This document shows positions 3 through 62,968 of a DNA stretch of 63,577 bases, piece by piece. The stretch comes from a virus (lineage: Duplodnaviria; Caudoviricetes). A program made the translations under genes and the position numbers. Position 1 is the stretch's first letter; each line of letters starts with the position of its first letter. The DNA is taken from the IMG/VR virus record IMGVR_UViG_3300032232_000301, positions 1 to 63,577 of that record; one strand, written 5' to 3'. Below the pieces are notes generated by a model that saw nothing but the letters and a program-made list of their open reading frames with translations, made no database searches and was not told the origin of the DNA.

Positions 3-122
3 AGTTTTGCTGGCGATTATTTTAGTAATACGCCGACTATTCCGGGTGAAGGAATACGTGCAAATACATCGGTATATGCAGAAATTTCCAATATGGATTC
101 AATACAAATTTATTATGGCTAA
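3..122 (+). CDS. 3' end of a small virion-region protein (partial, cut by window start)
   Basis: Open frame SFAGDYFSNTPTIPGEGIRANTSVYAEISNMDSIQIYYG ends at TAA 120-122 and overlaps the next ATG at 115. Confidence 0.6.
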   Translation, partial: SFAGDYFSNTPTIPGEGIRANTSVYAEISNMDSIQIYYG

Positions 123-360
123 GTCACCAGCATGGCAGAGGAAAGAAGGCAAGTCCGAGAAGGGCGGCTTGAACGCCAAGGGTCGGGCCTCCGCGAAAGC
201 GCAAGGTATGAACTTGAAGGCTCCCCAGCCCGAAGGCGGCTCCCGGCGCGACTCTTTCTGTGCGAGGATGGGCGGCATGAAAAAGAAGCTAACGAGTGCA
301 AAGACAGCCAACGATCCGGATTCACGGATCAATAAAGCATTGAGGGCTTGGAATTGTTAG
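115..360 (+). CDS. Conserved small basic phage protein (DUF6321-like)
   Basis: MAKSPAWQRKEGK...RRDSFCARM...ALRAWNC; start moved to the ATG overlapping the upstream stop; family name from recall. Confidence 0.75.
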   Translation: MAKSPAWQRKEGKSEKGGLNAKGRASAKAQGMNLKAPQPEGGSRRDSFCARMGGMKKKLTSAKTANDPDSRINKALRAWNC

Positions 361-599: not shown

Positions 600-869
600 A
601 TGTCAAATGGGAATCCTGCACCGCCACCACCACCGCCCAGAAGCGAGGGTTCCCCAAATTTTGAGGGGGGATCTTCATCACTTGGTAAAAGCCTTCGTGA
701 TGCTGTAAGCGTTCCAATTGGCGGCGGTACGCTAGAACCCGCCAAAGTTGGCAAAGGATATGGCGTTCGTTGGAGTAAAAGTTTTAATAAAGGCGGTAAA
801 GTTGGTTCCGCTTCTAAACGCGCCGATGGCATAGCCCAACGTGGTAAAACTAAGGGCCGGGTGCTGTAA
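600..869 (+). CDS. Small basic protein with GG and ADG tags
   Basis: FNKGG motif and C-terminal RADGIAQRGKTKGRVL; AAGGA Shine-Dalgarno. Confidence 0.75.
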   Translation: MSNGNPAPPPPPPRSEGSPNFEGGSSSLGKSLRDAVSVPIGGGTLEPAKVGKGYGVRWSKSFNKGGKVGSASKRADGIAQRGKTKGRVL

Positions 870-1387
870 TGCCAAGCACTAGCAAGAAACAACACAATTT
901 TATGGCGGCTGTGGCTAATAACCCAGCGTTTGCTAAGAAAGCAGGCGTCCCACAATCCGTGGGTAAAGAGTTCAACAATGCCGATAAAGGCAAAACTTTT
1001 AAACAAGGTGGCAACATGAAGAAAATGAATATGGGCGGATACGCAGACGGTGGCATGACCATGGTCAACAAGGGTGGCAAAATGGTTCCTGACTTTGCTG
1101 CTGACGGCATAGGCAAAATGAATAAAGGCGGCATGGCTAAAGCAGACATGAAGCAAGACAAATCAATGATGCAAAAAGCCGTGAACAAACACGAAGGCCG
1201 TTTGCACAAAGGCGAGTCCATGACCAAGCTGGCTAAAGGCGGCTCAGCAAAGTACATGTCATTTGATTCAAGTGGCAAACCTTCTGGAATGAAGGCAGTT
1301 AAAACCTCTCCTACCCGTGATGGTGTTGCCACTAAAGGTAAAACCAAGGGCAAGATGATTACAATGAAAAATGGCGGAAAGTGCTAA
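869..1387 (+). CDS. Lys/Met/Gly-rich basic protein with seven x-x-x-GG repeats
   Basis: TAATG coupling to the previous gene; FKQGG, MNMGG, YADGG, VNKGG, MNKGG, LAKGG, MKNGG. Confidence 0.8.
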   Translation: MPSTSKKQHNFMAAVANNPAFAKKAGVPQSVGKEFNNADKGKTFKQGGNMKKMNMGGYADGGMTMVNKGGKMVPDFAADGIGKMNKGGMAKADMKQDKSMMQKAVNKHEGRLHKGESMTKLAKGGSAKYMSFDSSGKPSGMKAVKTSPTRDGVATKGKTKGKMITMKNGGKC

Positions 1388-1396
1388 GGAGCAATC

Positions 1397-2479
1397 ATGG
1401 CTAGAAAACCTATGAAATTTAAACGCTACGAAGAAGGCGGAGACGTTGAAGAGTCAAAAGCCAAGCAACGTGGTTTAGAGATGTCCAACAAAGAAGCGCC
1501 TGTTGGGTTTTTTGAACGTTTCCGCATGGGCAATATAGACGATCCAAGCTCCGAAGCATACAAACGTTTTGGTGCAGGTCGTGGACGCTCGGAAGCTCCT
1601 GCCAAACAGGAAGAATCAGCACCGGCGCCTGTGGCTAGGCCTTCAATGAAGCCCCGTCCAATAGAACGTGCCTTATCAGATGATATGTATTCTGATACAG
1701 GTTCTAAAACTGGATTTGGTTCGGCTGGCACAAAATACAACGTTGCTGCAAGTTCTTCTCGCCCTTCTGATGCTATTGATTTACCATCATTACCGGCTAT
1801 GACTAAGTTTCCAGAAACTAAAAACAAGCCTTCAACACCTAAACCTACTGCATCTAAGCCTACCGCATCTAAACCGGCTGCATCCAAGCCTAGTGATTCT
1901 GGCGCAAGTTCCTCTACCAAGTCTGATGCGTCTCAGATTCCCGGCTCATCTGTTAAAGCTCCTGAAGGGGGAGAGAAGATTGATTCCTCAGAAACAGAAC
2001 GCAACATCAATGCTGCATTAACCGCAACAGGGTTAGGCGGTGCTGCGGCTGGCGCATACAAACTTAAAAAAATGTACGACGCGTCGAAAGCAGCTAAACA
2101 AGCACTATCCAGTACTAAAAGACTTGAGCGTCCCGGAACAGTGGCCGGTAAAGACTTTGTTGTTCGTGACTACGAAGGCGCAGCAAAAACTGCGTCTAAA
2201 GGAGTCCCTAAGAAACAATTAAGCTATAAAAAAGATTCTGACGTAACTGATGTAACTCCTAAAAAATCAAGCTACCGGAGTGAGACTAACCCTACCAAAC
2301 GTGAAGATGCTAGGGCCGATGAAGCTCGTGATAGCTTGGAAAAATGGTTAAAACGTGGCTACGAAATGAAAAAAGGCGGCGCAGTTAAGAAGTATGCTTC
2401 CGGCGGATCGGTTTCATCTGCATCTAGTCGTGCCGACGGTATTGCCTCTAAAGGCAAGACTCGTGGTAGGATTTGCTAA
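1397..2479 (+). CDS. Low-complexity basic protein, probable internal virion protein
   Basis: AAGGAG RBS; KPTAS repeats; YEEGG, MKKGG, YASGG and terminal RADGIASKGKTRGRIC. Confidence 0.8.
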   Translation: MARKPMKFKRYEEGGDVEESKAKQRGLEMSNKEAPVGFFERFRMGNIDDPSSEAYKRFGAGRGRSEAPAKQEESAPAPVARPSMKPRPIERALSDDMYSDTGSKTGFGSAGTKYNVAASSSRPSDAIDLPSLPAMTKFPETKNKPSTPKPTASKPTASKPAASKPSDSGASSSTKSDASQIPGSSVKAPEGGEKIDSSETERNINAALTATGLGGAAAGAYKLKKMYDASKAAKQALSSTKRLERPGTVAGKDFVVRDYEGAAKTASKGVPKKQLSYKKDSDVTDVTPKKSSYRSETNPTKREDARADEARDSLEKWLKRGYEMKKGGAVKKYASGGSVSSASSRADGIASKGKTRGRIC

Positions 2480-2488
2480 GGAAGCATT

Positions 2489-2764
2489 ATGAAAAAATAC
2501 GCTGAAGGCGGTATTTACACTGCAGAAATGGGTCAACCACCCATGGACCCTGAAGGTGCGCCAGCGTCTAAAAAACCCGCTGCTAAAACACCACCTCCTA
2601 AGAAAACTGCGCCCCCAAAAGACACAGTGTTTCGCGAAGGCATGCCAGTGCCACAAGATGTTGACGGTGGCTCTGTCCCCCGTAAGAAAAAAATGGCTAG
2701 TGGTGGCGTAACCCGTGCAGACGGTATTGCTCAGCGTGGTAAGACACGCGGAAAGATGTGCTAA
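2489..2764 (+). CDS. Small basic protein with GG and ADG tags
   Basis: MKKYAEGG...KKMASGGVTRADGIAQRGKTRGKMC. Confidence 0.8.
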   Translation: MKKYAEGGIYTAEMGQPPMDPEGAPASKKPAAKTPPPKKTAPPKDTVFREGMPVPQDVDGGSVPRKKKMASGGVTRADGIAQRGKTRGKMC

Positions 2765-2767
2765 ATC

Positions 2768-3052
2768 ATGATGGCAAGCCGTGGAATGGGAGCAATGTCC
2801 CCCTCTAAAATGCCCGGTGGGAAGAAGAAAGCCCGCCGTGACGACACTGACTTTACGCAGTATAAAGAGGGTGGTAAAGTAAAGTCTAAGGTAAATGAAT
2901 CTGGCAACTACACCAAGCCTGAGCTACGCAAACGGATTTTTAACAGTGTTAAAGCCGCCGCAGTGCAAGGCACTGGTGCAGGTCAGTGGTCAGCTCGTAA
3001 AGCCCAGTTAATGGCTAAACGCTACAAAGCAGCAGGTGGTGGCTATAAATGA
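2768..3052 (+). CDS. Basic protein, DUF5872-like N-terminal half
   Basis: NYTKPELRKRI...GQWSARKAQLMAKRYKAAGGGY; family from recall. Confidence 0.7.
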   Translation: MMASRGMGAMSPSKMPGGKKKARRDDTDFTQYKEGGKVKSKVNESGNYTKPELRKRIFNSVKAAAVQGTGAGQWSARKAQLMAKRYKAAGGGYK

Positions 3053-3282
3053 AAGCACCTCAGAAATCGCTTAAGGATTGGGGTGACCAGAAGTGGCGCA
3101 CTAAGTCTGGTAAACCGTCAAGCAAGACGGGAGAGCGGTATTTGCCTGAAGCAGCCATTAAGTCTTTGTCTCCCCAAGAGTATGCGGCTACAACCAAAGC
3201 CAAACGTGCTGGTAAAGCATCTGGCAAACAGTTTGTAGCCCAACCTAAAACAATTGCAAAGAAAACGGCAGGATTTAGATGA
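3049..3282 (+). CDS. Basic protein, DUF5872-like C-terminal half
   Basis: QKSLKDW...ERYLPEAAIKSLS...KQFVAQPK; ATGA overlaps at both ends. Confidence 0.7.
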   Translation: MKAPQKSLKDWGDQKWRTKSGKPSSKTGERYLPEAAIKSLSPQEYAATTKAKRAGKASGKQFVAQPKTIAKKTAGFR

Positions 3283-4208
3283 CCACTACCGGCTCAACCC
3301 TATTCAATATGGACTTCACGGAGATTGCCGAGGAAGCTTGGGAGCGGGCTGGTCGTGAAATGCGTTCTGGCTATGACCTGCGTACAGCACGCCGGTCGAT
3401 GAATCTGATGACTATCGAGTGGCAGTCTAAAGGCATCAACATGTGGACGATGGAGCAGGGAATTATCAACCTGACCCCGGGGCTTGCCACGTACGCGTTA
3501 CCAACCGACACAATTGATTTGTTAGAACATGTCATTCGTACTGGGTCCAATACTGCATCAACGCAGGCGGACTTAACAATTTCACGCATTAGCGTTTCTA
3601 CTTATGCAACTATTCCAAACAAGCTTAGCCAAGCTCGCCCAATTCAAGTCTGGATTCAAAGACTTTCTGGCGAAACTAACCCAACCAGTTCGGTCTTGGT
3701 GGGCGCAATTACGTCGACAGACACCACAATAACGCTTAACACAGTAGTTGGGCTGGCCGGATCAGGATTTATCCGCCTTGATTCAGAAGTAATTTATTAC
3801 ACATACGTCACGGGTAATGTGCTTGGTGGCGTATTCCGTGGGCAAAATAACACAACGGCAGCCTCTCATACCAACAGCACTGCGGTATTTGTACCACAGC
3901 TACCAGCGGTCACAGTCTGGCCAACCCCAGACAATAGCGTGCCTTACCAATTTGTCTACTACCGGCTTAGGCGCGTTCAAGATGCTGGCGCGGGTGTTGA
4001 GACAGCCGATATGAACTTCCGCTTCCTGCCCTGTTTGGTAGCGGGCTTGGCATACCATATCGCCATTAAAGTACCTGAGCTGATGCCCCGCATCCAAATG
4101 CTTAAACAGATTTACGATGAAACGTTTGAAATTGCGGCAGGCGAGGACCGGGAGAAGGCTCCGGTTAGGTTTGTTCCAAGACAACAATACATTGGTGGCA
4201 GTTACTAA
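3279..4208 (+). CDS. Probable head-tail adaptor/connector protein
   Basis: EEAWERAG...ARRSMNLMTIEW N-terminus and LVAGLAYHIA C-terminal helix are typical of podovirus adaptors; position in operon. Confidence 0.6.
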   Translation: MTTTGSTLFNMDFTEIAEEAWERAGREMRSGYDLRTARRSMNLMTIEWQSKGINMWTMEQGIINLTPGLATYALPTDTIDLLEHVIRTGSNTASTQADLTISRISVSTYATIPNKLSQARPIQVWIQRLSGETNPTSSVLVGAITSTDTTITLNTVVGLAGSGFIRLDSEVIYYTYVTGNVLGGVFRGQNNTTAASHTNSTAVFVPQLPAVTVWPTPDNSVPYQFVYYRLRRVQDAGAGVETADMNFRFLPCLVAGLAYHIAIKVPELMPRIQMLKQIYDETFEIAAGEDREKAPVRFVPRQQYIGGSY

Positions 4209-4591
4209 TGGGCAATAGATTCGCATCCGGCAAGATAGCGATTGCTGAATGTGATCGCTGTGGCCAGCAGTTCAAACTCAAGCAGCTTAAGACTGAGATC
4301 ATTAAGCAGCGTAAGTATGAGTTATTGGTATGCCCCGCATGTTGGGATCCGGATCAGCCGCAGTTGATGTTAGGTACGTTTCCTGTAGATGATCCGCAGG
4401 CTTTGCGTAACCCACGCAAGGACACAACGTATGTGACTTCGGGTGTGAATGCAAACGGTAACTTGTCTGGTGGTTCACGGGACATTCAGTGGGGCTGGGC
4501 ACCTGTAGGCGGGGCCAGTTTTAATGATGCAGGTTTGACACCAAACTACTTGATAGCAACCACGTTTGTGGGTACAGTTAGCATAACTTAA
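4208..4591 (+). CDS. Zinc-ribbon-containing virion-region protein
   Basis: CDRC...CPAC followed by WDPDQPQL. Confidence 0.7.
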   Translation: MGNRFASGKIAIAECDRCGQQFKLKQLKTEIIKQRKYELLVCPACWDPDQPQLMLGTFPVDDPQALRNPRKDTTYVTSGVNANGNLSGGSRDIQWGWAPVGGASFNDAGLTPNYLIATTFVGTVSIT

Positions 4592-4601
4592 GGAGCTTAA
4601 A

Positions 4602-4790
4602 ATGGCATTTACAAAATCAGCAGACGGCATTGCTAAAAAAGGCAAGACCGAAGGTAAAAACTACGGCGATAGCGGTCCTGTTGCTAAAATGATGCACGGC
4701 GGTATGGGTAAAGGCAAAGGCAAAACCAACGCCGACATGAAGTCAATGGGTCGTGGTTTGGCTAAAATTGCTAATCAAAAGCGAGGTTAA
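4602..4790 (+). CDS. Small basic protein with N-terminal ADG tag
   Basis: SADGIAKKGKTEGK and MMHGG; AAGGAG RBS. Confidence 0.75.
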   Translation: MAFTKSADGIAKKGKTEGKNYGDSGPVAKMMHGGMGKGKGKTNADMKSMGRGLAKIANQKRG

Positions 4791-4792
4791 TC

Positions 4793-5056
4793 ATGGCTAC
4801 ATTCAGCAAGAAATTAATGGGTAAAGAAGTTGGCGATGCCAAAGTCTATGCCACCCCCCACACCATGACTGGTAAGGTTGTTAAAGCTACCGACAATCCC
4901 GGTTCTGGCCCTGACCACAGCGATGCCAATACAGTCAATATGTCTGTTGGCAACATTAGTCGCCGTGCACAGCCAGCAACTAAGACAACTGGTATCAAAG
5001 TACGCGGTACTGGCGCAGCCACTAAAGGCTTGATGGCACGAGGCCCGATGGCATGA
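4793..5056 (+). CDS. Small basic protein
   Basis: Tight coupling; GIKVRGTGAATKG motif near C-terminus. Confidence 0.7.
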   Translation: MATFSKKLMGKEVGDAKVYATPHTMTGKVVKATDNPGSGPDHSDANTVNMSVGNISRRAQPATKTTGIKVRGTGAATKGLMARGPMA

Positions 5057-5718
5057 ACTACTCCCAGCTTGTCACGCAGGTAAGCGATTACTGCGAGAAC
5101 TCTTTCCCAACTGACAATATGAATACGTTCATTCGTCAGGCGGAGCAGCGCATCTATAACACTGCGCAGCCAGCCAATTTAAGAAAGAACGTGACAGGTA
5201 GCATCACTTCGGTCAACAAGTATTTGTCAGCACCGGATGATTTTCTATCGGTATATTCACTTGCGGTATACCCAACAGCTGGCGGTGACTTTCTATATTT
5301 GCTGAACAAAGATGTGAACTTCATGCGTGAAGCATATCCAAACCCAGCAAGCACAGGTAAGCCAAAACATTACGCTATTTTTGGTCCGACTGTAACGTCT
5401 GTGGGCGTAGTAACTAACGAGTTGTCGTTTATTGTTGGCCCAACACCAGACGCAGCATACAACGTTGAGCTGCACTATTACTACTACCCAGAATCTATTG
5501 TTACTGCAAGCACCACATGGCTGGGCGATAACTTTGACTCTGTGTTGTTGTATGGCACTATCTGTGAAGCCCTCGTTTACATGAAGGGTGACCAAGGCAT
5601 GTTAACTGTCGCTCAAGAGCGTTATGTTCAGGCTATTGCTCTGTATAAAAACTTGTCAGATGGCAAACAACGCGCCGATGCGTATCGTGATGGACAAGTT
5701 AGGGTTGCTGTTTCATGA
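5053..5718 (+). CDS. Probable second adaptor-like structural protein
   Basis: FIRQAEQRI...GKPKHYA...WLGDNFDSVLLYG pattern; ATGA coupling. Confidence 0.55.
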   Translation: MNYSQLVTQVSDYCENSFPTDNMNTFIRQAEQRIYNTAQPANLRKNVTGSITSVNKYLSAPDDFLSVYSLAVYPTAGGDFLYLLNKDVNFMREAYPNPASTGKPKHYAIFGPTVTSVGVVTNELSFIVGPTPDAAYNVELHYYYYPESIVTASTTWLGDNFDSVLLYGTICEALVYMKGDQGMLTVAQERYVQAIALYKNLSDGKQRADAYRDGQVRVAVS

Positions 5719-9700: not shown

Positions 9701-10133
9701 AATGCGTTTTAGCTTCGGCGTTCGTATTTTCTCTGCTAATCGCGGTGGTTCTGCCCAAGTTGCGCTGACTTACCAAGGCAACGTGATCGCCGCAGGTAAC
9801 GTGACTGCCTACGGCTCGCCATCTGACATCAGACTCAAAGAAAACATCCAACCACTGACAGGCGCTTTGAATAAGGTCATGCAACTGCAAGGCTGTACAT
9901 TTGACTGGAAAGAAGAATCAGAAGAATATAAAATGGTTGGACTGCGTGAAGACATTGGTTTTATCGCAGATGCTGTACAAGACGTTGTTCCGACTATGGT
10001 GCGCGAAGGTAAAGACGGATACCTTTCATTGCGTGATCGTGGGTTCTCCGCCCTTTTGGTTGAAGCCATGAAAGAACAACAGGCACAAATTGCAGCTTTG
10101 CGTGCAGAAATTAACGCTCTGAGAGCAAATTAA
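6762..10133 (+). CDS. Tail fibre 1 with C-terminal intramolecular chaperone (peptidase S74-like)
   Basis: DRVQETTTTTGTG N-terminus, GGTG repeats, three YDSNNT modules, SDIRLKENI...GFIADAV...coiled coil. Confidence 0.9.
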   Translation: MALALFDRVQETTTTTGTGSVTLAGAVPGFQTFAVVGNGNTCYYTIVDGSTWEVGVGTYSTTGPTLARTTILSNSSGNLSPITLTAGVKSVFLTYPAGKSVNLNESGNVSPLGTVSSGVWQGSTVGVAYGGTGVTASSGANSVMLRDANQNVNVNRLNQANTDTAAAGGTTTLTAASTYSQTLTGTGSQTFTMPDATTLTTGVAFVFNNNATGTLTLANYAATTIGVIPSGGAVALILLANGTTGGTWNYHGFAPENIQWGTNSLYLANDVITGGTWNGGTIGTAYGGTGLTSYTSGGAVYANSSSTLTSGTLPVTAGGTGATTAAGAQSSLNVPSTTGSGASGTWGISITGSASGSAGSVANAATFNSGGAGDASGTTFNGSAARTISYNTIGAPSTTGTNASGTWGINVTGTSGSISGFNNPTTAPTANTIAYRTADGDIAAREIILSSGLQSVTPTVLVGMYPTTNQLVRMTPAAVAAAIQTGATGTWAINISGNAATATTAANYLPLTGGTLSGDLLFSNSGLTKRGIMGTVGDNDYWFVGGGATASNTGFMEIATGDDGQTAGTYEPIYASQYGPGNPLTGTLVRRASLLDANGNTTFPGSVGINVDPAARLHVRQSTPTGLGGVPAGVTMISDSSTNNYLLFRNTADNGTYAGLAFQDNNMGGYVVFGNSGATPSDQLAIAGYSGGILQYGTSDSINPAARTTAASWNSTGLQVNNGDMRAPIYYDSNNTAYYVDPASTSILNTIGFNGTSANAFGNYWAGAVGYPAYQFTGGNSRFGFSSTSGYVDVYTDGNYYGGIDLYGASRLVPLFDANQGGGALYSSIIYDSNNTAFYLDPNGTSVLNILDAPALNDSRLYLRTRGDTNHYLWNAGDDWEELVAYSGTGFRVANSTGVGAILTCFGSDNGNYVQARGSMRAPIFYDSDNTGYYADFSSTAGDCARFAGGIVVSQGNVTGNGIILADDGDIVDLNDGYCSMRFSFGVRIFSANRGGSAQVALTYQGNVIAAGNVTAYGSPSDIRLKENIQPLTGALNKVMQLQGCTFDWKEESEEYKMVGLREDIGFIADAVQDVVPTMVREGKDGYLSLRDRGFSALLVEAMKEQQAQIAALRAEINALRAN

Positions 10134-20378: not shown

Positions 20379-22499
20379 ATGGATGAAATTAATTGGGACG
20401 ACACGGGCTGGGATAGCAATGCCCGAACTCAACTTAATGACTATCTTGGAGGTAGTACAGGTAACACAAATTACGGTGACGTTGATCCTCCTTCAACCGG
20501 TATAGGTGGTCCCGGCACGTCTTACACACAGAACCCTGATGGTACGGTAACCGTCAACCCTGACACTGGCGGTGGGTATGACACTACGCCTACAAGCGGC
20601 CTTCCAAGCGGGCTAGGAAATATTCTTGGTTCTTTGTTTGGTGATGGTAAAGGCGGCCTAGACCTTCTTAAACTGGGCGCTATGGGCGGCGGTTTGGCGG
20701 GCCTGCTTGGTGGAAACAAGTCTTCATCCACACCTTCTGGATATCAAGGCAGCATCCCTAAATACACTGCAACACGCAACATGGTTACTGCGCCCGAAGC
20801 AGGTCGTCGGCCCGGTGCTGGTGGCACTCGTTACGGTGGTGATGTAACGTTTGCACCCAAAGGCTCAGTGCCTACCGGCGGCGGTATTGCTTCTTTAATA
20901 GGTAGTAATCCTGTTGGTGGTAGCGTTGCTTCTTTGATAGGTAGTGGTCTTGTTGGCGGTGCTGCTCCAGTAGCCTCAAACCCCGTAGCGCCACAAACCC
21001 CCGGGCAAAGGGTGGCTCAGGACGATCCATTCTATCAATCGCCTGAGTTCAAAGCGTACCAAAACGATCAAGGAGGCGCACTGCATACTATGGATATGTA
21101 TATGTCCCCATACTTTGGGTCGGTTAGCTCTGGTTCGGCAGGCCGCGCTATGGATAGAGCGTACGAACAATACAAAAATAAAACCGGTGGTGGCGCTCCT
21201 ACGCGGTCAATTAGTCAGCAATATGCTGATGTTTCTGCGCCAATGAACGAGAATCAAACTTTTGCAGAAGGCGGTTCAACTGGTCGTTATTTACAAGGCG
21301 AGACTGACGGCATGGCCGACGAAATCCCAGCGCAAATTGGTGAAGACCAACCAGCGGCGCTTAGTCACGGTGAGTTTGTTATCCCTGCCGATGTGGTGTC
21401 CCATCTAGGCAATGGCAACTCTGATGCAGGCGCACAAAGGTTATACGACATGATGGACAAAATTCGCGAAGCTCGTACTGGTACAAAAAAGCAGGGTAAA
21501 GAAATTAACCCCGACAGCTTTATGCCCGGTGGTTTGGCCAAGGCTTACGCCGCTGGTGGCGAAGTTAAAAAATTCAACACTGGTGGTGTATCTGGTCTTG
21601 GCACTGCGGCCAATGCAGGTGTGACTGGCACTGAGTCTAATCTATCTAATTGGGTTGGCCCCTATGTGACTGACATGCTTGGCAAAGGTCAGGCTCTGTC
21701 TGAGATGCCGTACCAAGAATATGGTGGCCCTTTGACCGCTGGCGCATCTGGTCTGCAAAATAAAGTGTTTGGTGGGTTACAGAACACAAACTTCCCCGGA
21801 AATTTAGGCCAAAGCTTTAGCTCCACTGGCGCATACCAACCACCTCAAATGAGCATGGATGCGTACAAAACAACGCCTATTGGAACTGGTTCACAGCCCG
21901 GCGCTACTCCGCCTGCTGGTATTACAGGCGCATCTATTGCCCCTACGCCCGCCCAACCACAAGGTATTGCATCGCAGTATATGAACCCGTACTTGCAGTC
22001 TGTGCTGCAGCCCCAGATGGAAGAGTTGCGTCGTCAAGCTCAAATTAACAACATGAGCGGCATGGGCGCATTAACCAAATCCGGCGCGTTTGGCGGTGGT
22101 CGTCAGGCCATTATGGAATCCGAAGCGGGCCGTAACTTATTGCAAGAACAGAACAAAACAATTGGCCAAGGGTACGCAAACGCGTACGACAAAGGTATGC
22201 AACAGTTTAATACTGAGCAAGGTCAAGGCATGGGTTTGGCTAACCTTATGGCTGGTCAAGGCGCGGTTGAACGTGGCATTGAATCTGAAGGCATTGCTGC
22301 TGACAAAGAAGCGTTTGAAGAAGCTAGGGCAAACCCTTATAAGATGGTTCAATACCAACAATCGTTACTTAGCGGTTTACCATTAGCGTCGCAGAACATT
22401 AATACTGCTCAACCTAGTACGTTTCAACAAGTGTTGGGTGGCGCGGGTAGCGTAGCTAGTCTGTTGAACACTCTGGGCTTGGGCCCTAAAAAAGGTTAA
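20379..22499 (+). CDS. Probable ejection/pilot protein 2 with FAxGG...GEFV domain
   Basis: YMNPY...GAFGGGR pilot-protein-like region; FAEGG...ADEIPA...LSHGEFVIPADVV. Confidence 0.65.
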   Translation: MDEINWDDTGWDSNARTQLNDYLGGSTGNTNYGDVDPPSTGIGGPGTSYTQNPDGTVTVNPDTGGGYDTTPTSGLPSGLGNILGSLFGDGKGGLDLLKLGAMGGGLAGLLGGNKSSSTPSGYQGSIPKYTATRNMVTAPEAGRRPGAGGTRYGGDVTFAPKGSVPTGGGIASLIGSNPVGGSVASLIGSGLVGGAAPVASNPVAPQTPGQRVAQDDPFYQSPEFKAYQNDQGGALHTMDMYMSPYFGSVSSGSAGRAMDRAYEQYKNKTGGGAPTRSISQQYADVSAPMNENQTFAEGGSTGRYLQGETDGMADEIPAQIGEDQPAALSHGEFVIPADVVSHLGNGNSDAGAQRLYDMMDKIREARTGTKKQGKEINPDSFMPGGLAKAYAAGGEVKKFNTGGVSGLGTAANAGVTGTESNLSNWVGPYVTDMLGKGQALSEMPYQEYGGPLTAGASGLQNKVFGGLQNTNFPGNLGQSFSSTGAYQPPQMSMDAYKTTPIGTGSQPGATPPAGITGASIAPTPAQPQGIASQYMNPYLQSVLQPQMEELRRQAQINNMSGMGALTKSGAFGGGRQAIMESEAGRNLLQEQNKTIGQGYANAYDKGMQQFNTEQGQGMGLANLMAGQGAVERGIESEGIAADKEAFEEARANPYKMVQYQQSLLSGLPLASQNINTAQPSTFQQVLGGAGSVASLLNTLGLGPKKG

Positions 22500-22508: not shown

Positions 22509-24101
22509 ATGAACGGCGGAATTGACCAACTCGTAGATACCTATAAGGTTAACCCCCAACCCTTACAGGCCAAAGTGGAAAAGGCCCAACAAGGACAGCC
22601 ACCGGGTGAGATTCCCGCTGACTTGGAAGAAGCATTAGCGCTTCAAGAAATTGCCGAACTACGTAATAGTGCGCAAGGTCAACAAGCCATGCAAGTGGGC
22701 GGCGCTCAACAGTCCGTTGTAGACAAGCTGCGTCAAATGCTGGGCGGTATGCAGCAGCAAGCTCAAATGCAAGGCCAACCCGTCATGGCGGCTAGTGGTG
22801 GTAGTCTTGATCAACTTATGTCTAACCTTGGCCAATATTATGCTGGCGGCGGTATTGTTGCGTTTACCAGTGGCGGTAGCATGCCCTTATCAGGAGAATT
22901 TAGCGGTTTTGGTGGGGAAACTCCGGAGCAAGAAGCTAGAACCGAAGTTCGGGGCGCAGAAGAAAAGCGTGCTAAAGAGATAGATGCCTTAGAAAGAAAA
23001 GTAGCTTTCTTAGAGTCTGCTGATGCTAAACAAGCCCCAGAAGCACGAGCGCAGTTGGAAGCACTAAAGGGCGGTACGAAACCAAAGCCGCCTCCAGCTC
23101 AACCTGACACGAGTACAACCAAAGCTCCAGCCGCACCTGCCGCTAAAGTACCACCTACTGCAAATATTAATCCGCCCGCTGCTCCAGCTAAACCCGTTGC
23201 AGAACCAATGGATCCTATGGAGAAAGTTATTCGCGATAGCATTATGAAAACCATGGCGCAGGACCCAGATGCGGTGCGCAGAAAAGCCATTGACGCTAAC
23301 AGACAAGACATGGGCTTAGATGCGTTGCTGAAACCTATGCAAGACCGCGTCGCTACTCGCGAAGCAAGGATTAAAGAAATCCAAGACAGCCGTCAGCCGC
23401 TGTGGATCGATGCGTTGATGTCTGCTAGTAAGCCCGCTAAAGGCGGCATTGCTGGTGTTCTTCAGAACATGGCCGTAGGCGCTATCTCTGGAAAGCAGAA
23501 CTACGAAGTTGAAGACCTTAAGTTCCTTGATGAACTTAACAAGCTCAGCTCTGAGATTGACAAAGCCAAAATTGAAGGTCGCTACAAAGATGTGGCTGCT
23601 GGTAAAGAGGCTGTTAAAGACCTTATTGCTGATAAGAAACAAGCGGAAGTTTCGGGTACTAGCTTGCTCAATACCAAAGAGAACGTACGAAGCCGTGAAC
23701 AAATTGCAAGAGATGCCGCCGCTGGTCGTGCCCAAACTGCTTCTGCGCAAGCTCAAAATGTAGCGCTCGCCCGAGAAGAAAGAATACGGCAGTTTAATGA
23801 ATCTGAGTTGCGTAAGATACGCGAGAAGGATGTTGATCGCGCTAATAAGATTGAGGCAGCAATTGCCAAACGTACGGCCATGATCGACATGTCATTACAG
23901 TCGCCTAAGCTTAAACCCGAAGACGAAGCCGCGTTACTGGAGCGAAGAAACGCTATTGTCAAACAGGTCCGGGCGGAGTATCCTCCTATTAAACCTGAGA
24001 AGCCTTCAGAAAGTCAGTTTCTTACAGCGGCCCGCGCAGCCAACCCCGGCGTAAGCGATGCAGATTTGAAGGCGTACTACAAACAAAACTACGGATCCTA
24101 A
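22509..24101 (+). CDS. Probable ejection protein 3
   Basis: Helical/coiled-coil protein with AASGG, YAGGG, FTSGG. Confidence 0.6.
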   Translation: MNGGIDQLVDTYKVNPQPLQAKVEKAQQGQPPGEIPADLEEALALQEIAELRNSAQGQQAMQVGGAQQSVVDKLRQMLGGMQQQAQMQGQPVMAASGGSLDQLMSNLGQYYAGGGIVAFTSGGSMPLSGEFSGFGGETPEQEARTEVRGAEEKRAKEIDALERKVAFLESADAKQAPEARAQLEALKGGTKPKPPPAQPDTSTTKAPAAPAAKVPPTANINPPAAPAKPVAEPMDPMEKVIRDSIMKTMAQDPDAVRRKAIDANRQDMGLDALLKPMQDRVATREARIKEIQDSRQPLWIDALMSASKPAKGGIAGVLQNMAVGAISGKQNYEVEDLKFLDELNKLSSEIDKAKIEGRYKDVAAGKEAVKDLIADKKQAEVSGTSLLNTKENVRSREQIARDAAAGRAQTASAQAQNVALAREERIRQFNESELRKIREKDVDRANKIEAAIAKRTAMIDMSLQSPKLKPEDEAALLERRNAIVKQVRAEYPPIKPEKPSESQFLTAARAANPGVSDADLKAYYKQNYGS

Positions 24102-49750: not shown

Positions 49751-49779
49751 GGAATGTTCGACAGAATGTCGATTTATCC
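49751..49779. repeat. 29-bp dyad, copy 4
   Basis: GGAA tgt TCGACA gaa TGTCGA ttt ATCC. Confidence 0.9.
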
Positions 49780-56833: not shown

Positions 56834-56841
56834 GGATAGAT

Positions 56842-59391
56842 ATGGCTACGAATATGGTTCCCTCATTGTCACAAGCTCCACTGGGCTTGAGTGCATTAGA
56901 AGATATGGGCGACATGCCCGCGATTGAGATCGAGATTGAAGATCCAGAAGGTGTTCGCATCGGGCTTGACGGTATGGAGATTGATCTGATGCCCGAAGAA
57001 GAGGCGGAGGACTTTGATGCCAACCTTGCAGAAGAGATGGATGCAAGCGAGCTACAGAAAGTAGCTAGTGACATCGTAGAGATGGTGGACGCTGACATTA
57101 ACTCACGTAAAGAGTGGGTGGATATGTATGTAAAAGGTCTTGATGTTTTGGGGATGAAATATGAGGAAAGAACAGAACCTTGGCTTGGAGCCTGTGGAGT
57201 TTTCTCTACGGTACTTACTGAAGCAGCGGTCAGGTTTCAGAGTGAAACGATTATTGAAACGTTTCCAGCGCAGGGCCCGGTCAAGACTGAGATTATTGGT
57301 GCAATTGATAAGCTTAAAGAAGAAGCAGCCGAACGTGTAAGAGATGATATGAACTATCAGCTCACCGAGGTGATGCAAGAGTATCGCCCTGAGCATGAGC
57401 GCATGTTGTACAACTTAGGTCTCGCGGGCGCGGCGTTCAAGAAAGTTTATTTTGATCCCTCGCTTGATCGTCAGGTGGCGATGTTCATCCCTGCTGAAGA
57501 CATCATTATTCCCTACGGCGCGTCAAGCGCGGCTACTGCTGAGCGACTCACACATGTGATGCGTAAGACCAAGAATGACTTGAAGAAATTACAAGTTGCT
57601 GGGTTCTACATTGATGAGGAGTTGGGTGAGCCCGTTGCAATACACACAGACGTAGAGAAGAAGAAAGCCGATGACCAAGGTTACTCACTAACGGATGATG
57701 ATCGCTATCAGATTCTTGAAGTGCACATTGATTACGACCTGCCCGGTTATGAAGATGAAGATGGTATTGCACTGCCGTATATCATCACGATTGAGCGCGG
57801 TACTAATACAGTGTTGGCCATTCGCCGTAACTGGGAAGAAGAAGACAAGCGCAAGTTAAAACGTCAGCACTTTGTGCAGTACACATACGTCCCCGGCTTC
57901 GGTGCTTATGGTCTGGGATTGATTCATTTGATTGGTGGTTACGCCCGCGCAGGTACTTCCATCATTCGCCAGTTGATTGACTGCGGTACGTTGTCTAACT
58001 TGCCCGGTGGCTTGAAAACCCGTGGCTTGCGTATCAAGGATGACGATACCCCGATTAATCCCGGTGAGTTCCGTGACGTTGATGTACCAAGCGGTTCAGT
58101 GCGTGACAACATCATGGCGCTGCCATACAAAGAACCATCACAGGTTCTTGCGGGTCTCTTAGACAAAGTGACCGAAGAAGGTCGTCGTCTAGGCTCAATT
58201 GCTGATATGAACATCAGTGATATGTCTGCTAATGCGCCAGTGGGTACAACGCTTGCATTGCTTGAGAGACAACTCAAGACAATGTCTGCGGTTCAAGCCC
58301 GCGTGCACTATTCGATGAAGCAAGAGTTCCAGTTGCTGCGTGACATCATTCGTGATCACACACCACCTGAGTACAGTTTTGATCCGGTTGAGGGTGACCG
58401 CAAAGCAAAGCAAGCTGACTACGACATGGTGTCGGTCATACCAGTAAGCGATCCCAACAGTGCAACGATGGCTCAGCGCATCATGCAGTATCAAGCTGTG
58501 ATCCAGTTGGCTCAAGGTGCTCCGCAGATTTATGACCTGCCACAGTTGCACAGACAAATGATTGAAGTGCTTGGCATCAAGAACGCGGATAAGTTAGTGC
58601 CGATAGATGAGGATCAGACACCACGCGATCCTGTGTCTGAGAACATGTCGTTCCTCACTGGTAAACCCACAAAGGCGTTTATTCATCAGGACCATGATGC
58701 ACACATCGCTGTTCATACCAGCATGATGCAGGACCCCATGATCATGGGTCAGATTGGTCAGAGTCCCATGGCTCAACAGATGCAGGGCGCAATCATGGCT
58801 CACGTTGCGGAACACTTGGCGTTCCAGTACCGTCAGAAAGTTCAGGAGCAACTGGGCGCAACATTGCCAGCACCTGATGCGAAGCTCGACAACAACGTTG
58901 AAGTGCAGGTTTCTAAACTTGTGGCTCAAGCTGCGGCGCAACTTCTGCAGATGGATAAAGCCAAGGCAGCTCAGCAGCAAGCGATGCAGCAGGCTCAAGA
59001 TCCGATCATTCAGATGCAACAAGCTGAATTGCAGATCAAGAAACAGGAAGCTGACATCAAGGCGTTTAAAGCCAAGAGCGACGTGCAGCTCAAGGCTGAA
59101 GAGTTGTCACTCAAGGCGCAAGAGAGCGCAGCCCGTAGTGGAGAAGATCCACAGATGGCTGCGATGCGACTACAGCAAGAAATTGCACAAGCGCAAGAGT
59201 TGCATGGCCTAGAGATGGCAGCTAAACGGATGGAGTTGCAGCAGGCGCAGGCTCAGCAACAACAACAGATGCAGATGCAACAAGCTCAAACTCAACAGAA
59301 GATGGCTCACGGCGGGCAAGTCCATGAGCAGAAAATGAAGCATGCTGATCTAGACAGAATTCAACGGTTATTACAGGGTAATAAGGAGTAA
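56842..59391 (+). CDS. Portal protein with long Gln-rich C-terminal barrel
   Basis: Follows terL; AFKKVYFD, GAYGLGL, APVGTTLAL; P22-like size. Confidence 0.85.
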   Translation: MATNMVPSLSQAPLGLSALEDMGDMPAIEIEIEDPEGVRIGLDGMEIDLMPEEEAEDFDANLAEEMDASELQKVASDIVEMVDADINSRKEWVDMYVKGLDVLGMKYEERTEPWLGACGVFSTVLTEAAVRFQSETIIETFPAQGPVKTEIIGAIDKLKEEAAERVRDDMNYQLTEVMQEYRPEHERMLYNLGLAGAAFKKVYFDPSLDRQVAMFIPAEDIIIPYGASSAATAERLTHVMRKTKNDLKKLQVAGFYIDEELGEPVAIHTDVEKKKADDQGYSLTDDDRYQILEVHIDYDLPGYEDEDGIALPYIITIERGTNTVLAIRRNWEEEDKRKLKRQHFVQYTYVPGFGAYGLGLIHLIGGYARAGTSIIRQLIDCGTLSNLPGGLKTRGLRIKDDDTPINPGEFRDVDVPSGSVRDNIMALPYKEPSQVLAGLLDKVTEEGRRLGSIADMNISDMSANAPVGTTLALLERQLKTMSAVQARVHYSMKQEFQLLRDIIRDHTPPEYSFDPVEGDRKAKQADYDMVSVIPVSDPNSATMAQRIMQYQAVIQLAQGAPQIYDLPQLHRQMIEVLGIKNADKLVPIDEDQTPRDPVSENMSFLTGKPTKAFIHQDHDAHIAVHTSMMQDPMIMGQIGQSPMAQQMQGAIMAHVAEHLAFQYRQKVQEQLGATLPAPDAKLDNNVEVQVSKLVAQAAAQLLQMDKAKAAQQQAMQQAQDPIIQMQQAELQIKKQEADIKAFKAKSDVQLKAEELSLKAQESAARSGEDPQMAAMRLQQEIAQAQELHGLEMAAKRMELQQAQAQQQQQMQMQQAQTQQKMAHGGQVHEQKMKHADLDRIQRLLQGNKE

Positions 59392-59393
59392 TC

Positions 59394-59985: not shown

Positions 59986-59995
59986 GGAGTAAACC

Positions 59996-61407: not shown

Positions 61408-61424
61408 TTTTTTTGGAGTTTTAA

Positions 61425-62027: not shown

Positions 62028-62040
62028 GGAGTAAATTACC

Positions 62041-62949
62041 ATGGCAATTTCACGCGCACAACTACTTAAAGAACTTCTCCCCGGCTTAAACGCTTTGTTT
62101 GGTCTGGAGTACGCTAAATATGGTGAGGAACATAAAGAAATTTATGAAACCGAATCTTCTGAGCGTTCTTTTGAAGAAGAGACAAAGCTGTCTGGCTTCG
62201 GTCAAGCACCAGTCAAAAACGAGGGTTCTGCCATCGCTTATGACAATGCACAGGAAGCCTTCACTGCACGTTACACACACGAAACCATTGCGATGGGCTT
62301 TGCCATCACAGAGGAAGCTGTGGAAGATAACTTGTATGACAGCCTGTCTTCACGTTACACCAAGGCTCTGGCCCGTGGTATGGCTTACACCAAGCAAGTT
62401 AAGGCCGCTTACGTCCTAAACAACGCTTTTACTGGTGGCCCTACATACGGTGACGGCGTGGTTTTGTGCTCAACAGCACACCCCTTGGTGTCTGGTGGTA
62501 CTAACAGCAACACTCCTTCCACTGCTGCCGATTTGAACGAGACTTCTCTTGAGAATGCCGTTATTCAGATCGCTGCTTGGACAGATGAGCGTAGCTTGTT
62601 GATCGCCGCTAAGCCTAAGAAGTTGGTGATTCCACCTGCTCTGCAATTCGTTGCCACTCGTCTGCTTGAAACCGAACTTCGTGTTTCTACTGCTGACAAT
62701 GACATCAACGCGTTGAAGAACAATGGCTCCATCCCTGAAGGCTATTGCATCAACCACTACTTGACAGACACCAACGCTTGGTTCCTGTTGACTGATGTGC
62801 CTAACGGTTTGAAGCACTTCGTTCGTACCCCCATGTCTACCGGCATGGACGGTGACTTTGACACAGGTAACGTTCGTTACAAAGCCCGTGAGCGTTACAG
62901 CTTTGGCGTGTCTGACCCACTGGGTATCTTCGGTTCACCCGGAGCCTAA
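62041..62949 (+). CDS. Major capsid protein
   Basis: MAISRAQLLKELLPGLNALFG...PKKLVIPP...YKARERYSFG; followed by a strong terminator. Confidence 0.9.
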   Translation: MAISRAQLLKELLPGLNALFGLEYAKYGEEHKEIYETESSERSFEEETKLSGFGQAPVKNEGSAIAYDNAQEAFTARYTHETIAMGFAITEEAVEDNLYDSLSSRYTKALARGMAYTKQVKAAYVLNNAFTGGPTYGDGVVLCSTAHPLVSGGTNSNTPSTAADLNETSLENAVIQIAAWTDERSLLIAAKPKKLVIPPALQFVATRLLETELRVSTADNDINALKNNGSIPEGYCINHYLTDTNAWFLLTDVPNGLKHFVRTPMSTGMDGDFDTGNVRYKARERYSFGVSDPLGIFGSPGA

Positions 62950-62968
62950 TATTTCTTCGGAAATATTT

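What the first reader, a model, noticed from the sequence alone, without database searches (positions are those of the whole stretch)
600..4790. Shared hydrophobic-x-x-GG tag across many unrelated virion-region proteins
Seen: about 22 instances, often preceded by Lys/Arg: FNKGG (ORF 600); FKQGG, MNMGG, YADGG, VNKGG, MNKGG, LAKGG, MKNGG (869); YEEGG, MKKGG, YASGG (1397); YAEGG, MASGG (2489); YKEGG (2768); MMHGG (4602); and outside this span FAEGG, YAAGG, FNTGG (20379), AASGG, YAGGG, FTSGG (22509) and MAHGG near the portal C-terminus (59302). Apart from the tags the proteins share little, and the tags tend to separate modules or flank disordered cargo. Established: T4 internal proteins use a short capsid-targeting sequence, and several protease families cut after Gly-Gly. 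Inference: a genome-wide peptide address or cleavage code for capsid loading, maturation or ejection. I recognised no prohead protease in the head operon.
Basis: partly seen in the sequence, partly recalled or inferred. Interest (0 to 1): 0.8.

Follow-up and report, generated by a model that had tools for sequence, protein, structure and literature searches.

The report
Shared C-terminal tag on phage proteins
A short "hydrophobic-x-x-Gly-Gly" motif is real, but it is the front half of a longer, undescribed tail peptide that one abundant lineage of aquatic phages attaches to many unrelated small basic proteins, most likely to load them into the virus head.

Summary
All 22 listed pentapeptides are present. 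Enrichment is strong only in six small basic ORFs (600, 869, 1397, 2489, 2768, 4602): 13 [FMY]xxGG observed against 1.6 expected, 0 of 300 shuffles. It is marginal in other virion proteins and absent from the replication block.

The pentapeptide is the first half of a roughly 27-residue, strictly C-terminal module: Phi-x-x-G-G-x-V-x-SAS-[KR]-R-[AG]-DGIA-x-[RK]-GKT-[KR]-G-[KR]-Phi-[CVLI]-COOH. A profile of it finds 8,404 protein clusters. In 141 of the top 150 it ends 3 residues before the C-terminus, and the N-terminal parts fall into 101 families.

The module is virus-specific. Every locus examined belongs to one roughly 60-kb podovirus lineage, where 1-6 tag genes sit in a variable cassette between the capsid and adaptor genes. 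Conserved copies of the half-motif also flank the "GEFV" region of ejection protein 20379 and mark the only conserved island of 22509. The portal copy is not conserved.

The proteins are predicted disordered, and no prohead protease was found. The best reading (about 0.4) is an uncleaved loading or docking tag for polymorphic internal proteins, analogous to the T4 CTS and the encapsulin loading peptide. A cleavage code is unsupported. Nothing here is tested experimentally.

The parts
600..869 (+). Tag protein 1 (89 aa). Pro-rich, poorly conserved N-terminal part. The C-terminal module starts at FNKGG (nt 783-866) and ends in L.
   Evidence: GG is present in 18 of 18 orthologues; the hydrophobic position is F7, M7, Y3, W1.
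869..1387 (+). Tag protein 2 (172 aa). A conserved 42-aa N-terminal domain is followed by a run of seven Phi-x-x-GG copies and then a variant module (RDGVATKGKTKG...MKNGGKC-COOH).
   Evidence: Orthologues carry 2-7 copies of the motif. The N-terminal domain is shared with jumbo phages.
1397..2479 (+). Tag protein 3 (360 aa). N-terminal YEEGG at aa 11-15, a long poorly conserved Ser/Pro/Lys-rich middle part, and a C-terminal MKKGG-YASGG module (nt 2393-2476).
   Evidence: Mean column identity is 0.42, but the module is near-invariant.
2489..2764 (+). Tag protein 4 (91 aa). N-terminal MKKYAEGG, two highly conserved Gly/Pro-rich linear motifs, and a C-terminal module (nt 2693-2761) ending in an invariant Cys.
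   Evidence: 745 homologues. Invariant columns are listed. AlphaFold2 gives pLDDT 55 with no secondary structure.
2768..3052 (+). Small basic protein (94 aa) with a conserved YKEGG at aa 32-36. It has no C-terminal module. Its N-terminal part is found fused to the body of ORF 2489 in P0090, joined exactly at the motif.
   Evidence: Hydrophobic position Y26, M1, F1; GG in 28 of 28.
4602..4790 (+). Small basic protein (62 aa) with the second half of the module (ADGIAKKGKTEGK) at its N-terminus and a GG at aa 33-34. The preceding hydrophobic residue is not conserved.
109..360 (+). DUF6321 small basic protein (83 aa), first gene of the cassette. In one relative (L064) it is fused directly to the tag module.
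   Evidence: (PF19846, E 7e-18).
21261..21587 (+). Conserved 'GEFV' region of putative ejection protein 20379-22499. One Phi-A-x-GG lies on its N side and three (FMPGG, YAAGG, FNTGG) on its C side.
   Evidence: At least 7,797 homologues. All four GG pairs are invariant in 40 sequences and at least 90% conserved in 121. As a monomer it does not fold confidently (pLDDT 50).
22836..22877 (+). YYAGGGIVAFTSGG island in putative ejection protein 22509-24101.
   Evidence: This is the only stretch of the 530-aa protein that matched in any of 5 related records (query 98-124). The relative reads YANGGIVAF there.
59302..59316 (+). MAHGG near the portal C-terminus. Most likely a chance instance.
   Evidence: Not present in the Pag-Yong1 or HTVC023P portal tails, nor in the portal ORFs of L088, L089, L092, L093, L096, L097 and L099.
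62041..62949 (+). HK97-type major capsid protein. It co-occurs with the tag and is the most conserved neighbouring protein, which makes it a candidate receptor (inference only).
   Evidence: It is 81-96% identical in 33 tag-bearing loci, against 32-92% for the adaptor.
3279..4208 (+). SU10-type head-tail adaptor; downstream boundary of the main cassette.
   Evidence: (PF24175).

Best explanation
Phi-x-x-GG is the first half of a conserved C-terminal peptide of about 27 residues: Phi-x-x-G-G-x-V-x-S-A-S-[KR]-R-[AG]-D-G-I-A-x-[RK]-G-K-T-[KR]-G-[KR]-Phi-[C/V/L/I]-COOH.

What it sits on. One lineage of roughly 60-kb aquatic podoviruses attaches this peptide to a polymorphic set of small, mostly basic, disordered proteins. 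Their genes form a hypervariable cassette between the capsid genes and the head-tail adaptor.

Proposed mechanism (inferred, not shown). The intact tail, probably as a Gly-Gly beta-hairpin plus a basic segment with a free hydrophobic C-terminus, docks on a conserved component of the procapsid. That component could be the capsid-protein interior, the scaffold or the portal/core. Variable polycationic 'cargo' would thereby be loaded before DNA packaging, lie with the DNA, and leave with it at infection. Extra copies of the half-motif (at N-termini, in tandem in ORF 869, and flanking conserved regions of ejection proteins 20379 and 22509) would be additional docking sites of the same kind. No proteolysis is required.

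Shown: the motif, the module, its strict C-terminal position, its conservation, its restriction to viruses and to this lineage, the diversity of what it is attached to, and the predicted disorder.

Inferred: virion location, the receptor, and loading.
For: 1. The module is real and conserved. In 40 diverse C-termini GG, D, G, A, G, K and T are invariant. In orthologue sets the GG pairs are invariant or nearly so, and the hydrophobic position stays F/M/Y/L while the surroundings vary.
2. Its position is fixed. 141 of the 150 best profile hits, and 118 of 232 module-bearing ORFs in related loci, have exactly 3 residues after the module. Most of the rest are the ORF 869 and ORF 4602 types.
3. It is one tag on many cargoes. 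8,404 clusters score E<=1e-3 and 1,977 score <=1e-10. The N-terminal parts of 142 of the top 150 fall into 101 BLAST families, 84 of them singletons. They have a median length of 90 aa, 67% have pI>9, and only 21% of residues are hydrophobic.
4. The cassette is hypervariable within a fixed frame. There are 1-6 tag genes per locus, with gains, losses, read-through fusions and a module swap at the motif, between conserved capsid and adaptor genes.
5. It is specific to viruses and to this lineage. Only 15 loci turned up in 185,579 prokaryote genomes. The 10 loci long enough to show neighbours carry the same phage gene order, 8 of them with a capsid protein 82-92% identical; 4 short fragments show only cassette genes, and L101 matched no window protein. 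All 80 viral loci retrieved with the tag alone carry at least one anchor gene of the lineage.
6. The context fits. The genes sit in the late/virion block, tightly packed. The half-motif is also conserved in two large proteins upstream of a 2,499-aa DarB-like polyvalent protein, which is the usual place for ejection proteins.
7. ORF 2489 is predicted disordered yet 78% conserved per column, as expected for a peptide that binds a partner.
8. There is a precedent. [quoted passage not shown]
Against: - No result places any of these proteins in a virion.
- The cultured relatives I found carry no annotation for them. Two literature searches for proteomic data found nothing: one on Pag-Yong1, and one combined term search for podovirus virion proteomes with small basic ejected proteins.
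- Known phage targeting signals are N-terminal and are cleaved (T4). This one is C-terminal.
- The tag is itself strongly basic (pI about 11), so it could be the working part (DNA or membrane binding) rather than an address.
- In HTVC023P the related small proteins lie beside lysis genes, not capsid genes.
- The cargo is mostly featureless and disordered, which fits 'bulk polycation' as well as it fits 'diverse effectors'.
Confidence: 0.4

Rival explanations
1. The module is itself the effector. It would be a polycation/'sticker' peptide (aromatic or Met plus GG, then RGKTRGK) that binds and condenses nucleic acid. The proteins would then be protamine-like DNA counter-ions or condensers, and the variable part would be spacer. 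This overlaps with the best explanation, because such proteins would still have to enter the head before the DNA does.
For: - The tag has pI about 11, and 67% of the N-terminal parts are basic, Ala/Lys/Gly/Ser/Pro-rich and poor in hydrophobic residues.
- There are several tag genes per genome, 1-6.
- The number of half-motif copies expands and contracts between 2 and 11, as in multivalent low-complexity proteins.
- Extreme conservation of the basic core would fit a universal ligand such as DNA.
- T4 internal-protein lysines contact DNA phosphates (PMC3012670).
Against: - A generic DNA binder would not need a fixed 3-residue distance to a free hydrophobic or Cys C-terminus.
- It would not need invariant Asp, Ala and Thr.
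- It would not be expected to be confined to one capsid lineage.
- About 11% of cargoes are acidic.
Confidence: 0.25
2. These are not virion components. The tag proteins would be late cytoplasmic or envelope-directed factors, for example cationic membrane- or outer-membrane-disrupting lysis helpers, or host-takeover peptides. The conserved tail would then be the active or localising part.
For: - ORF 348-593 inside the cassette is a predicted membrane/coiled-coil protein with weak holin/lipoprotein-type PHROG hits.
- In Pag-Yong1 the DUF6321 gene lies next to a holin gene. In HTVC023P related small proteins follow the M15 peptidase.
- The tails are short, cationic and end in a hydrophobic residue.
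Against: - In the window and in all 80+80+15 related loci the tag genes lie between capsid and adaptor genes, while holin and endolysin are 10 kb away.
- The same half-motif is conserved in large ejection-type proteins.
- There are no hydrophobic or amphipathic helices; AlphaFold2 finds no secondary structure in ORF 2489.
Confidence: 0.15
3. Cleavage code. A protease would cut after GG, releasing a conserved cationic peptide of about 20 aa from several precursors and trimming the N-terminal MKK-Phi-x-x-GG leaders, as adenovirus protease does with core-protein precursors.
For: - GG is invariant.
- The motif lies at module boundaries and at 56 of 247 N-termini.
- Several precursors per genome end in the same peptide.
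- An intact HExxH putative metallopeptidase-VWA protein (47886-49154) sits next to a MoxR-type AAA ATPase.
- From memory: GG-directed maturation proteases exist, such as adenain and C39.
Against: - No prohead-protease family was found. 47 proteins were scanned with Pfam and 39 with PHROGs, out of 79 predicted ORFs. The only peptidase hits were the M15 endolysin and DUF2201_N.
- DUF2201 homologues occur in 734 phage records, mostly N4-like, rV5-like and jumbo phages where I saw no tag, and the gene lies in the replication block.
- The hydrophobic residue is at P5, and P4 is Ala/Lys/Ser/Asn.
- The P' side is also biased.
- The exact spacing to the C-terminus argues for an intact tail.
- Scaffold-using podoviruses commonly lack a maturation protease (recalled).
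Confidence: 0.08
4. Chance or compositional artefact of Gly/Lys-rich low-complexity sequence, or a DNA-level signal (such as internal ribosome-binding sites) rather than a protein motif.
For: - The six proteins are 13% Gly and 20% Lys+Arg.
- The portal and some 22509 instances look like chance.
Against: - 0 of 300 composition-preserving shuffles reach the observed count.
- The positions are conserved across hundreds of homologues.
- Gly codons in the motif follow general usage (GGC 30, GGT 17, GGA 4, GGG 1). The flanking codons differ between copies and are not Shine-Dalgarno-like.
Confidence: 0.02

Closest known systems
T4 internal proteins (IPI-III and relatives) with their capsid targeting sequence
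   Same: A hypervariable set of small, often basic proteins shares only a short conserved peptide, which directs them into the prohead. They lie with the DNA and are ejected (PMC3012670, passages read). The tag cassette here has the same logic: one peptide on many unrelated sequences, with gene content varying between close relatives.
   Different: From memory, the T4 signal is N-terminal, about 10 aa, and is removed by the prohead protease. Here the peptide is C-terminal, about 27 aa, shows no sequence likeness, and no protease was found. Virion location is not shown here.
Encapsulin cargo-loading (targeting) peptides
   Same: A short conserved peptide at the extreme C-terminus of otherwise unrelated cargo, after a flexible linker, binds the inside of an HK97-fold shell without cleavage (abstracts of PMC8346489 and PMC11866011 seen in the listing; details recalled). 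The tag here is also C-terminal, follows disordered sequence, and co-occurs with one highly conserved HK97-type capsid protein.
   Different: There is no sequence similarity to the encapsulin consensus as I recall it. Here there are several cargo genes per genome, the cargo is disordered and basic rather than an enzyme, and binding to the capsid protein is not shown.
T7 gp6.7 and gp7.3 (small basic virion proteins that are ejected)
   Same: Small, basic, Gly-rich proteins encoded within the virion block of a podovirus (recalled; no call).
   Different: I know of no shared conserved tail or gene family in T7. No homology was tested or found here.
Adenovirus core-protein precursors cut by adenain at (M/L/I)-x-G-G; double-glycine leaders cut by C39 peptidases
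   Same: A hydrophobic residue followed by Gly-Gly in small basic or precursor proteins (recalled).
   Different: In those systems the hydrophobic residue is at P4, whereas here it is at P5. No clan CE or C39 family was found in the proteins scanned. The conserved part here is downstream of GG and reaches the C-terminus.
Beta-hairpin of PQQ-type propeller blades (designed 'Bagel' proteins 8prj, 8pra)
   Same: This was the only match of the module profile among solved structures. K-Phi-x-x-G-G-x-V-x-S aligns with the blade motif there, which suggests the half-motif can form a strand - GG turn - strand hairpin.
   Different: Each repeat matches at chance level by itself (i-E-value 200-500), and only 13 residues align. 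This is a structural hint, not homology.

Membership tests
T4-type capsid-targeting-sequence internal proteins | Many unrelated proteins share only the short targeting peptide, in a variable gene cassette | tested here: met
   101 cargo families among 142 tagged proteins. There are 1-6 tag genes per locus, with varying content.
T4-type capsid-targeting-sequence internal proteins | The signal is N-terminal and is removed by a prohead protease | tested here: not met
   The module ends 3 residues before the C-terminus in 141 of 150. No prohead-protease family was found in 47 Pfam and 39 PHROG scans.
T4-type capsid-targeting-sequence internal proteins | The proteins are packaged in the head and ejected | not testable with these tools
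   Needs virion proteomics. Two searches, one on Pag-Yong1 and one on podovirus virion proteomes with small basic ejected proteins, found none.
Encapsulin cargo-loading peptide | A conserved peptide at the extreme C-terminus of diverse cargo, after a flexible linker | tested here: met
   ORF 2489 is predicted disordered.
Encapsulin cargo-loading peptide | Binds the luminal face of the HK97-fold shell protein | not testable with these tools
   Only co-occurrence with a capsid protein 81-96% identical is shown. It needs binding or structural data.
Double-glycine / clan CE type cleavage site | Hydrophobic residue at P4 (Phi-x-G-G), with conservation confined to the P side | tested here: not met
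   The hydrophobic residue is at P5. P4 is A 40%, K 24%, S 11%, N 10%. The +2 position is V 27%, A 21%. The downstream 20 aa are the most conserved part.
Double-glycine / clan CE type cleavage site | A cognate C39, adenain-like or other maturation protease is encoded | tested here: not met
   None found. The only peptidase hits were the M15 endolysin and DUF2201_N, a putative metallopeptidase in the replication block. 32 of the 79 predicted ORFs, mostly under 100 aa, were not scanned with Pfam.
Pfam KGG stress-protein repeat (PF10685) and other described families | Match to the family model | tested here: not met
   ORFs 600, 869, 1397, 2489 and 4602 have no credible match in Pfam, PHROGs or NCBIfam, and none covering the module. 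Hits seen: ORF 869's N-terminal domain in PHROGs; chance-level hits for 1397 and 2489.
DUF6321 (PF19846) | Match above the gathering score | tested here: met
   ORF 109-360 scores 65.4 bits against a cut-off of 28.5. This is a neighbour of the tag proteins, not the tag itself.

The most novel reading that the evidence does not exclude
The module is an uncleaved, C-terminal capsid-loading peptide of a tailed phage, that is, a phage counterpart of the encapsulin targeting peptide. Its aromatic/Met-GG 'stickers' plus RGKTRGK segment would let a rapidly diversifying set of disordered polycations enter the procapsid, co-condense with the genome, and be delivered into the host with the DNA. If so, any protein given this roughly 27-residue tail might be loaded into the heads of one of the most abundant freshwater and marine podovirus lineages.
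Probability: 0.3. Interest if true: 0.8.

Novelty: new variant of a known kind. Interest (0 to 1): 0.62.

Why it matters
Internal and ejected phage proteins are poorly understood and are rarely recognisable from sequence. This work defines a simple sequence signature (8,404 clusters at 50% identity) that is absent from Pfam, PHROGs and NCBIfam and from the literature I could search.

The signature marks a large, fast-evolving set of small proteins in an abundant, mostly uncultured aquatic phage lineage. If it is a loading tag, three things follow:
- It would be the first C-terminal, protease-independent capsid-targeting signal in a tailed phage.
- It would give a handle for finding delivered effectors, such as possible anti-defence proteins.
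- It would offer a way to load cargo into capsids.

If it is instead a DNA-condensing peptide, it bears on how about 63 kb of DNA is neutralised inside the head. Either way the claim can be tested directly with a cultured relative.

Tried and rejected
- Complex prediction of the capsid protein (alignment A4) with the tag (alignment A3) returned 'no answer' (score 0.00, controls not run). It says nothing for or against binding.
- AlphaFold2 of ORF 2489 (22-row alignment) and of the GEFV region with its flanking motifs (40 rows) gave pLDDT 55 and 50, so there was nothing to use for fold search.
- tblastn of ORF 2489 against 50,697 phage records found no match. ORF 869 matched only through its N-terminal 42-aa domain, in jumbo phages.
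- The ESM Atlas search with ORF 869 returned only unnamed viral clusters.
- PDB sequence searches with the capsid protein and with ORF 60946 found no hits.
- The idea that the motif reflects internal Shine-Dalgarno-like DNA was rejected from codon usage.
- The lanthipeptide/RiPP idea (GG leader, Ser-rich core, terminal Cys) was rejected. Only 65 of 150 tails end in Cys, and the conserved part is the 'core' rather than the leader.
- The DUF2201 metallopeptidase as a dedicated tag protease is weak, because it is widespread in phages where I saw no tag.
- Literature searches on DUF6321, Pag-Yong1, podovirus virion proteomes and literal motif strings returned nothing relevant. The HTVC023P-type genome paper mentions only a 13-gene core including GroES. 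Its supplementary tables could not be seen and may list these genes.
- Earlier findings of this scan were not open.

Full report
WHAT THE WINDOW IS

The 63,577-base window is a complete, circularly permuted phage genome. The ORF that starts at 63079 runs across the join and stops near base 107. The record is rated 100% complete.

The + strand block 54625-63577 plus 1-31604 holds, in order:
- large terminase and portal;
- a GroES-like protein and a scaffold-like acidic coiled-coil protein;
- two conserved unknowns;
- an HK97-type major capsid protein (62041-62949) and a minor capsid protein;
- a run of small ORFs;
- two SU10-type adaptor proteins, tail fibres, holin and an M15 endolysin;
- a virion protein, three large unknown proteins, and a 2,499-aa DarB-like polyvalent protein.

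The - strand block holds replication genes.

The capsid protein is 74% identical to those of Planktothrix phage Pag-Yong1 and Synechococcus phage MinM2, and 65% identical to that of Pelagibacter phage HTVC023P.

I shuffled residues within each protein as a chance test:
None of 300 shuffles reaches 13.
- With a preceding Lys/Arg the count is 14 against 0.65 (0 of 300).
- The remaining 36 + strand proteins hold 17 against 10.5 (10 of 300). Eight of these lie in 20379 and 22509.
- The 37 - strand proteins hold 3 against 2.5.

The motif is therefore real, but it is concentrated rather than genome-wide.

It is a protein signal, not a DNA signal. The Gly codons follow general usage, and the flanking codons differ from copy to copy.

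THE PENTAPEPTIDE IS HALF OF A LARGER MODULE

ORFs 600, 869, 1397 and 2489 end in the same roughly 27 residues, and ORF 4602 begins with the second half of it.

An alignment of 40 diverse C-termini from the window and related contigs gives this pattern: Phi-x-x-G-G-x-V-x-S-A-S-[KR]-R-[AG]-D-G-I-A-x-[RK]-G-K-T-[KR]-G-[KR]-Phi-[C/V/L/I]-COOH. GG, D, G, A, G, K and T are invariant.

Where modules occur in tandem, each unit starts with Phi-x-x-GG.

CONSERVATION

- ORF 2489 has 745 homologues of similar length. In 22 of them both GG pairs, ADG, GKT-G and the terminal Cys are invariant.
- Across orthologue sets drawn from 80 related viral contigs, the GG pairs of the main instances are invariant or nearly so, the hydrophobic position stays F/M/Y/L, and the flanks drift.
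- The central run of copies in ORF 869 varies from 2 to 7 between orthologues. One relative has 11 in 119 aa.
- In 247 distinct family members, 411 of 694 GG have F/M/Y at -3, against 42 of 406 in 282 neighbouring proteins. In 56 of the 247 the motif lies within the first 20 residues.

HOW WIDE, AND ON WHAT?

A profile of the module was searched against 1.84 billion representative proteins. It found 8,404 clusters at E<=1e-3 and 1,977 at <=1e-10.

Among the best 150 hits:
- 141 have exactly three residues after the module.
- The last residue is C in 65, V in 49, L in 17 and I in 8.
- 142 have an N-terminal part of at least 25 aa, and these parts fall into 101 BLAST families, 84 of them singletons.
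- The N-terminal parts have a median length of 90 aa. 67% have pI above 9 and only 21% of residues are hydrophobic.

None of the tag proteins has a credible match in Pfam, PHROGs or NCBIfam. The exceptions are the unrelated N-terminal domain of ORF 869 and chance-level hits for ORFs 1397 and 2489. Searches for literal motif strings in the paper library found nothing relevant.

WHERE IT OCCURS

A scan of one genome from each of 185,579 prokaryote species found only 15 loci, all on MAG contigs binned to many different phyla. The 10 loci long enough to show neighbours carry this phage's gene order, and 8 of them carry a capsid protein 82-92% identical. Four short fragments show only cassette genes, and L101 matched no window protein. 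These contigs are most likely mis-binned phage.

All 80 loci kept carry at least one anchor gene of the same lineage. The capsid protein is 81-96% identical in 33 of them, while the adaptor ranges from 32% to 92%.

Each locus has 1-6 tag genes, most often 3. They always lie in a cassette framed as follows: minor capsid, DUF6321, a small membrane protein, the tag genes, the 2768 and 3049 homologues, then the adaptor.

Gene content differs even between close relatives. There are read-through fusions (869+2489). One protein (P0090) has the N-terminus of ORF 2768 joined to the body of ORF 2489 exactly at Y-x-E-G-G.

COPIES OUTSIDE THE CASSETTE

In 20379 a very widespread region is flanked by one Phi-A-x-GG on its N side and three on its C side. 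All the flanking GG pairs are invariant in 40 sequences. Pag-Yong1 has the same arrangement.

The 530-aa protein 22509 is so divergent that only residues 98-124, the YYAGGGIVAFTSGG island, matched in any of five related records. The relative reads YANGGIVAF there.

The portal copy is not conserved, and I treat it as chance.

STRUCTURE

AlphaFold2 predicts ORF 2489 to be fully disordered (pLDDT 55, no secondary structure) although its columns are 78% conserved. The GEFV region does not fold as a monomer either (pLDDT 50).

Among solved structures, the module profile's only resemblance is to the strand-GG-strand hairpin of PQQ-type propeller blades. Each repeat matches only at chance level. That is a hint that the half-motif can form a beta-hairpin, and no more than a hint.

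PROTEASE

I found no prohead-protease family in 47 proteins scanned with Pfam and 39 with PHROGs, out of 79 predicted ORFs. 32 ORFs, mostly short, were not scanned with Pfam.

The peptidase-type hits were:
- the M15 endolysin;
- a DUF2201_N-VWA protein with an intact HExxH motif, next to a MoxR-type ATPase in the replication block.

Homologues of the DUF2201 protein occur in 734 phage records, mainly N4-like, rV5-like and jumbo phages. It is therefore not specifically linked to the tag.

INTERPRETATION

The data show one conserved, strictly C-terminal peptide on a large and fast-changing set of small, basic, disordered proteins. These are encoded inside the virion block of a single capsid lineage, and the same half-motif is conserved in ejection-type proteins.

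[quoted passage not shown] The encapsulin C-terminal cargo-loading peptide, which binds an HK97-fold shell, is also close (abstracts; details recalled).

My best explanation (0.4) is an uncleaved docking or loading tag for polymorphic internal proteins. The rivals are:
- the tag is itself a DNA-condensing peptide (0.25; this overlaps with the best explanation);
- a late function outside the virion, such as envelope disruption (0.15);
- a cleavage code (0.08);
- an artefact (0.02).

The arguments against cleavage are these:
- The hydrophobic residue is at P5, not P4.
- The P' side is also biased.
- The most conserved residues lie downstream of GG.
- The distance to the free C-terminus is fixed.
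- No dedicated protease was found.

None of these readings has experimental support here. Virion location in particular is inferred only from gene position.

VERDICT

The 'address' reading is plausible, and the 'cleavage' reading is not supported. The object is an undescribed, very abundant, lineage-specific C-terminal module, which I class as a new variant of the known idea of capsid-targeting tags.

Noticed in passing
window 63079-63577 joined to 1-107: The window is a whole, circularly permuted genome. A roughly 206-aa minor-capsid-like ORF reads smoothly across the join.
   Followed up: partly
window 47886-49154 (-) and 49774-50850 (-): A DUF2201_N putative metallopeptidase with an intact HExxH and a VWA domain (DxSGS) lies near a MoxR-type AAA ATPase in the replication block. 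Homologues occur in 734 phage records, mostly N4-like, rV5-like and jumbo phages, and are often mislabelled 'HNH endonuclease'.
   Followed up: partly
window 59428-59985 (+): A GroES/Cpn10-like protein is encoded between portal and scaffold. It is conserved in all relatives seen and is reported as a core gene of HTVC023P-type phages (PMC9599517). Its role in head assembly is unknown.
   Followed up: no
window 24105-31604 (+): A 2,499-aa polyvalent protein with an LPD39 domain and a DarB-like C-terminal half. Its N-terminal roughly 1,590 aa match nothing.
   Followed up: no
window 109-360 (+); L064:195-509: The DUF6321 small basic protein is shared with T4-like cyanophages, where PHROG profiles place the domain at the C-terminus of much larger proteins. 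In one relative it is fused directly to the tag module. It ends in a conserved Cys, as many tag tails do.
   Followed up: partly
window 869-1000 (+): The first 42 aa of ORF 869 form a small domain that is 54-79% identical to stand-alone or N-terminal domains in phiKZ-like and other jumbo phages (for example PHIKZ165.1, and 121Q genes annotated as virion structural).
   Followed up: partly
L087-L101 (genome contigs): Fifteen 'bacterial' MAG contigs carry the tag. They are binned to Nanopelagicales, Microbacteriaceae, Methylopumilus, Cyanobium, Flavobacteriales, Saccharimonadales, Clostridia and others. Ten show this phage lineage's gene order and are most likely mis-binned virus. Bin taxonomy therefore gives no host.
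   Followed up: partly
window 3279-4208 and 5053-5718 (+): Two genes match the SU10 adaptor family. The first carries an inserted tail-fibre-like segment that is missing in some relatives (233-237 aa forms).
   Followed up: no
window 6762-10133, 11750-13405; 10145-10501, 13402-13737 (+): Two tail-fibre paralogues share a C-terminal domain. Each is followed by a small phrog_7802 paralogue, possibly a fibre-plus-chaperone pair that has been duplicated.
   Followed up: no
window 2768-3282 (+): ORFs 2768 and 3049 are the only part of the region with DNA-level similarity to HMO-2011-type and CRP roseophages (66-72%). This suggests these two small basic genes move between phage lineages.
   Followed up: no
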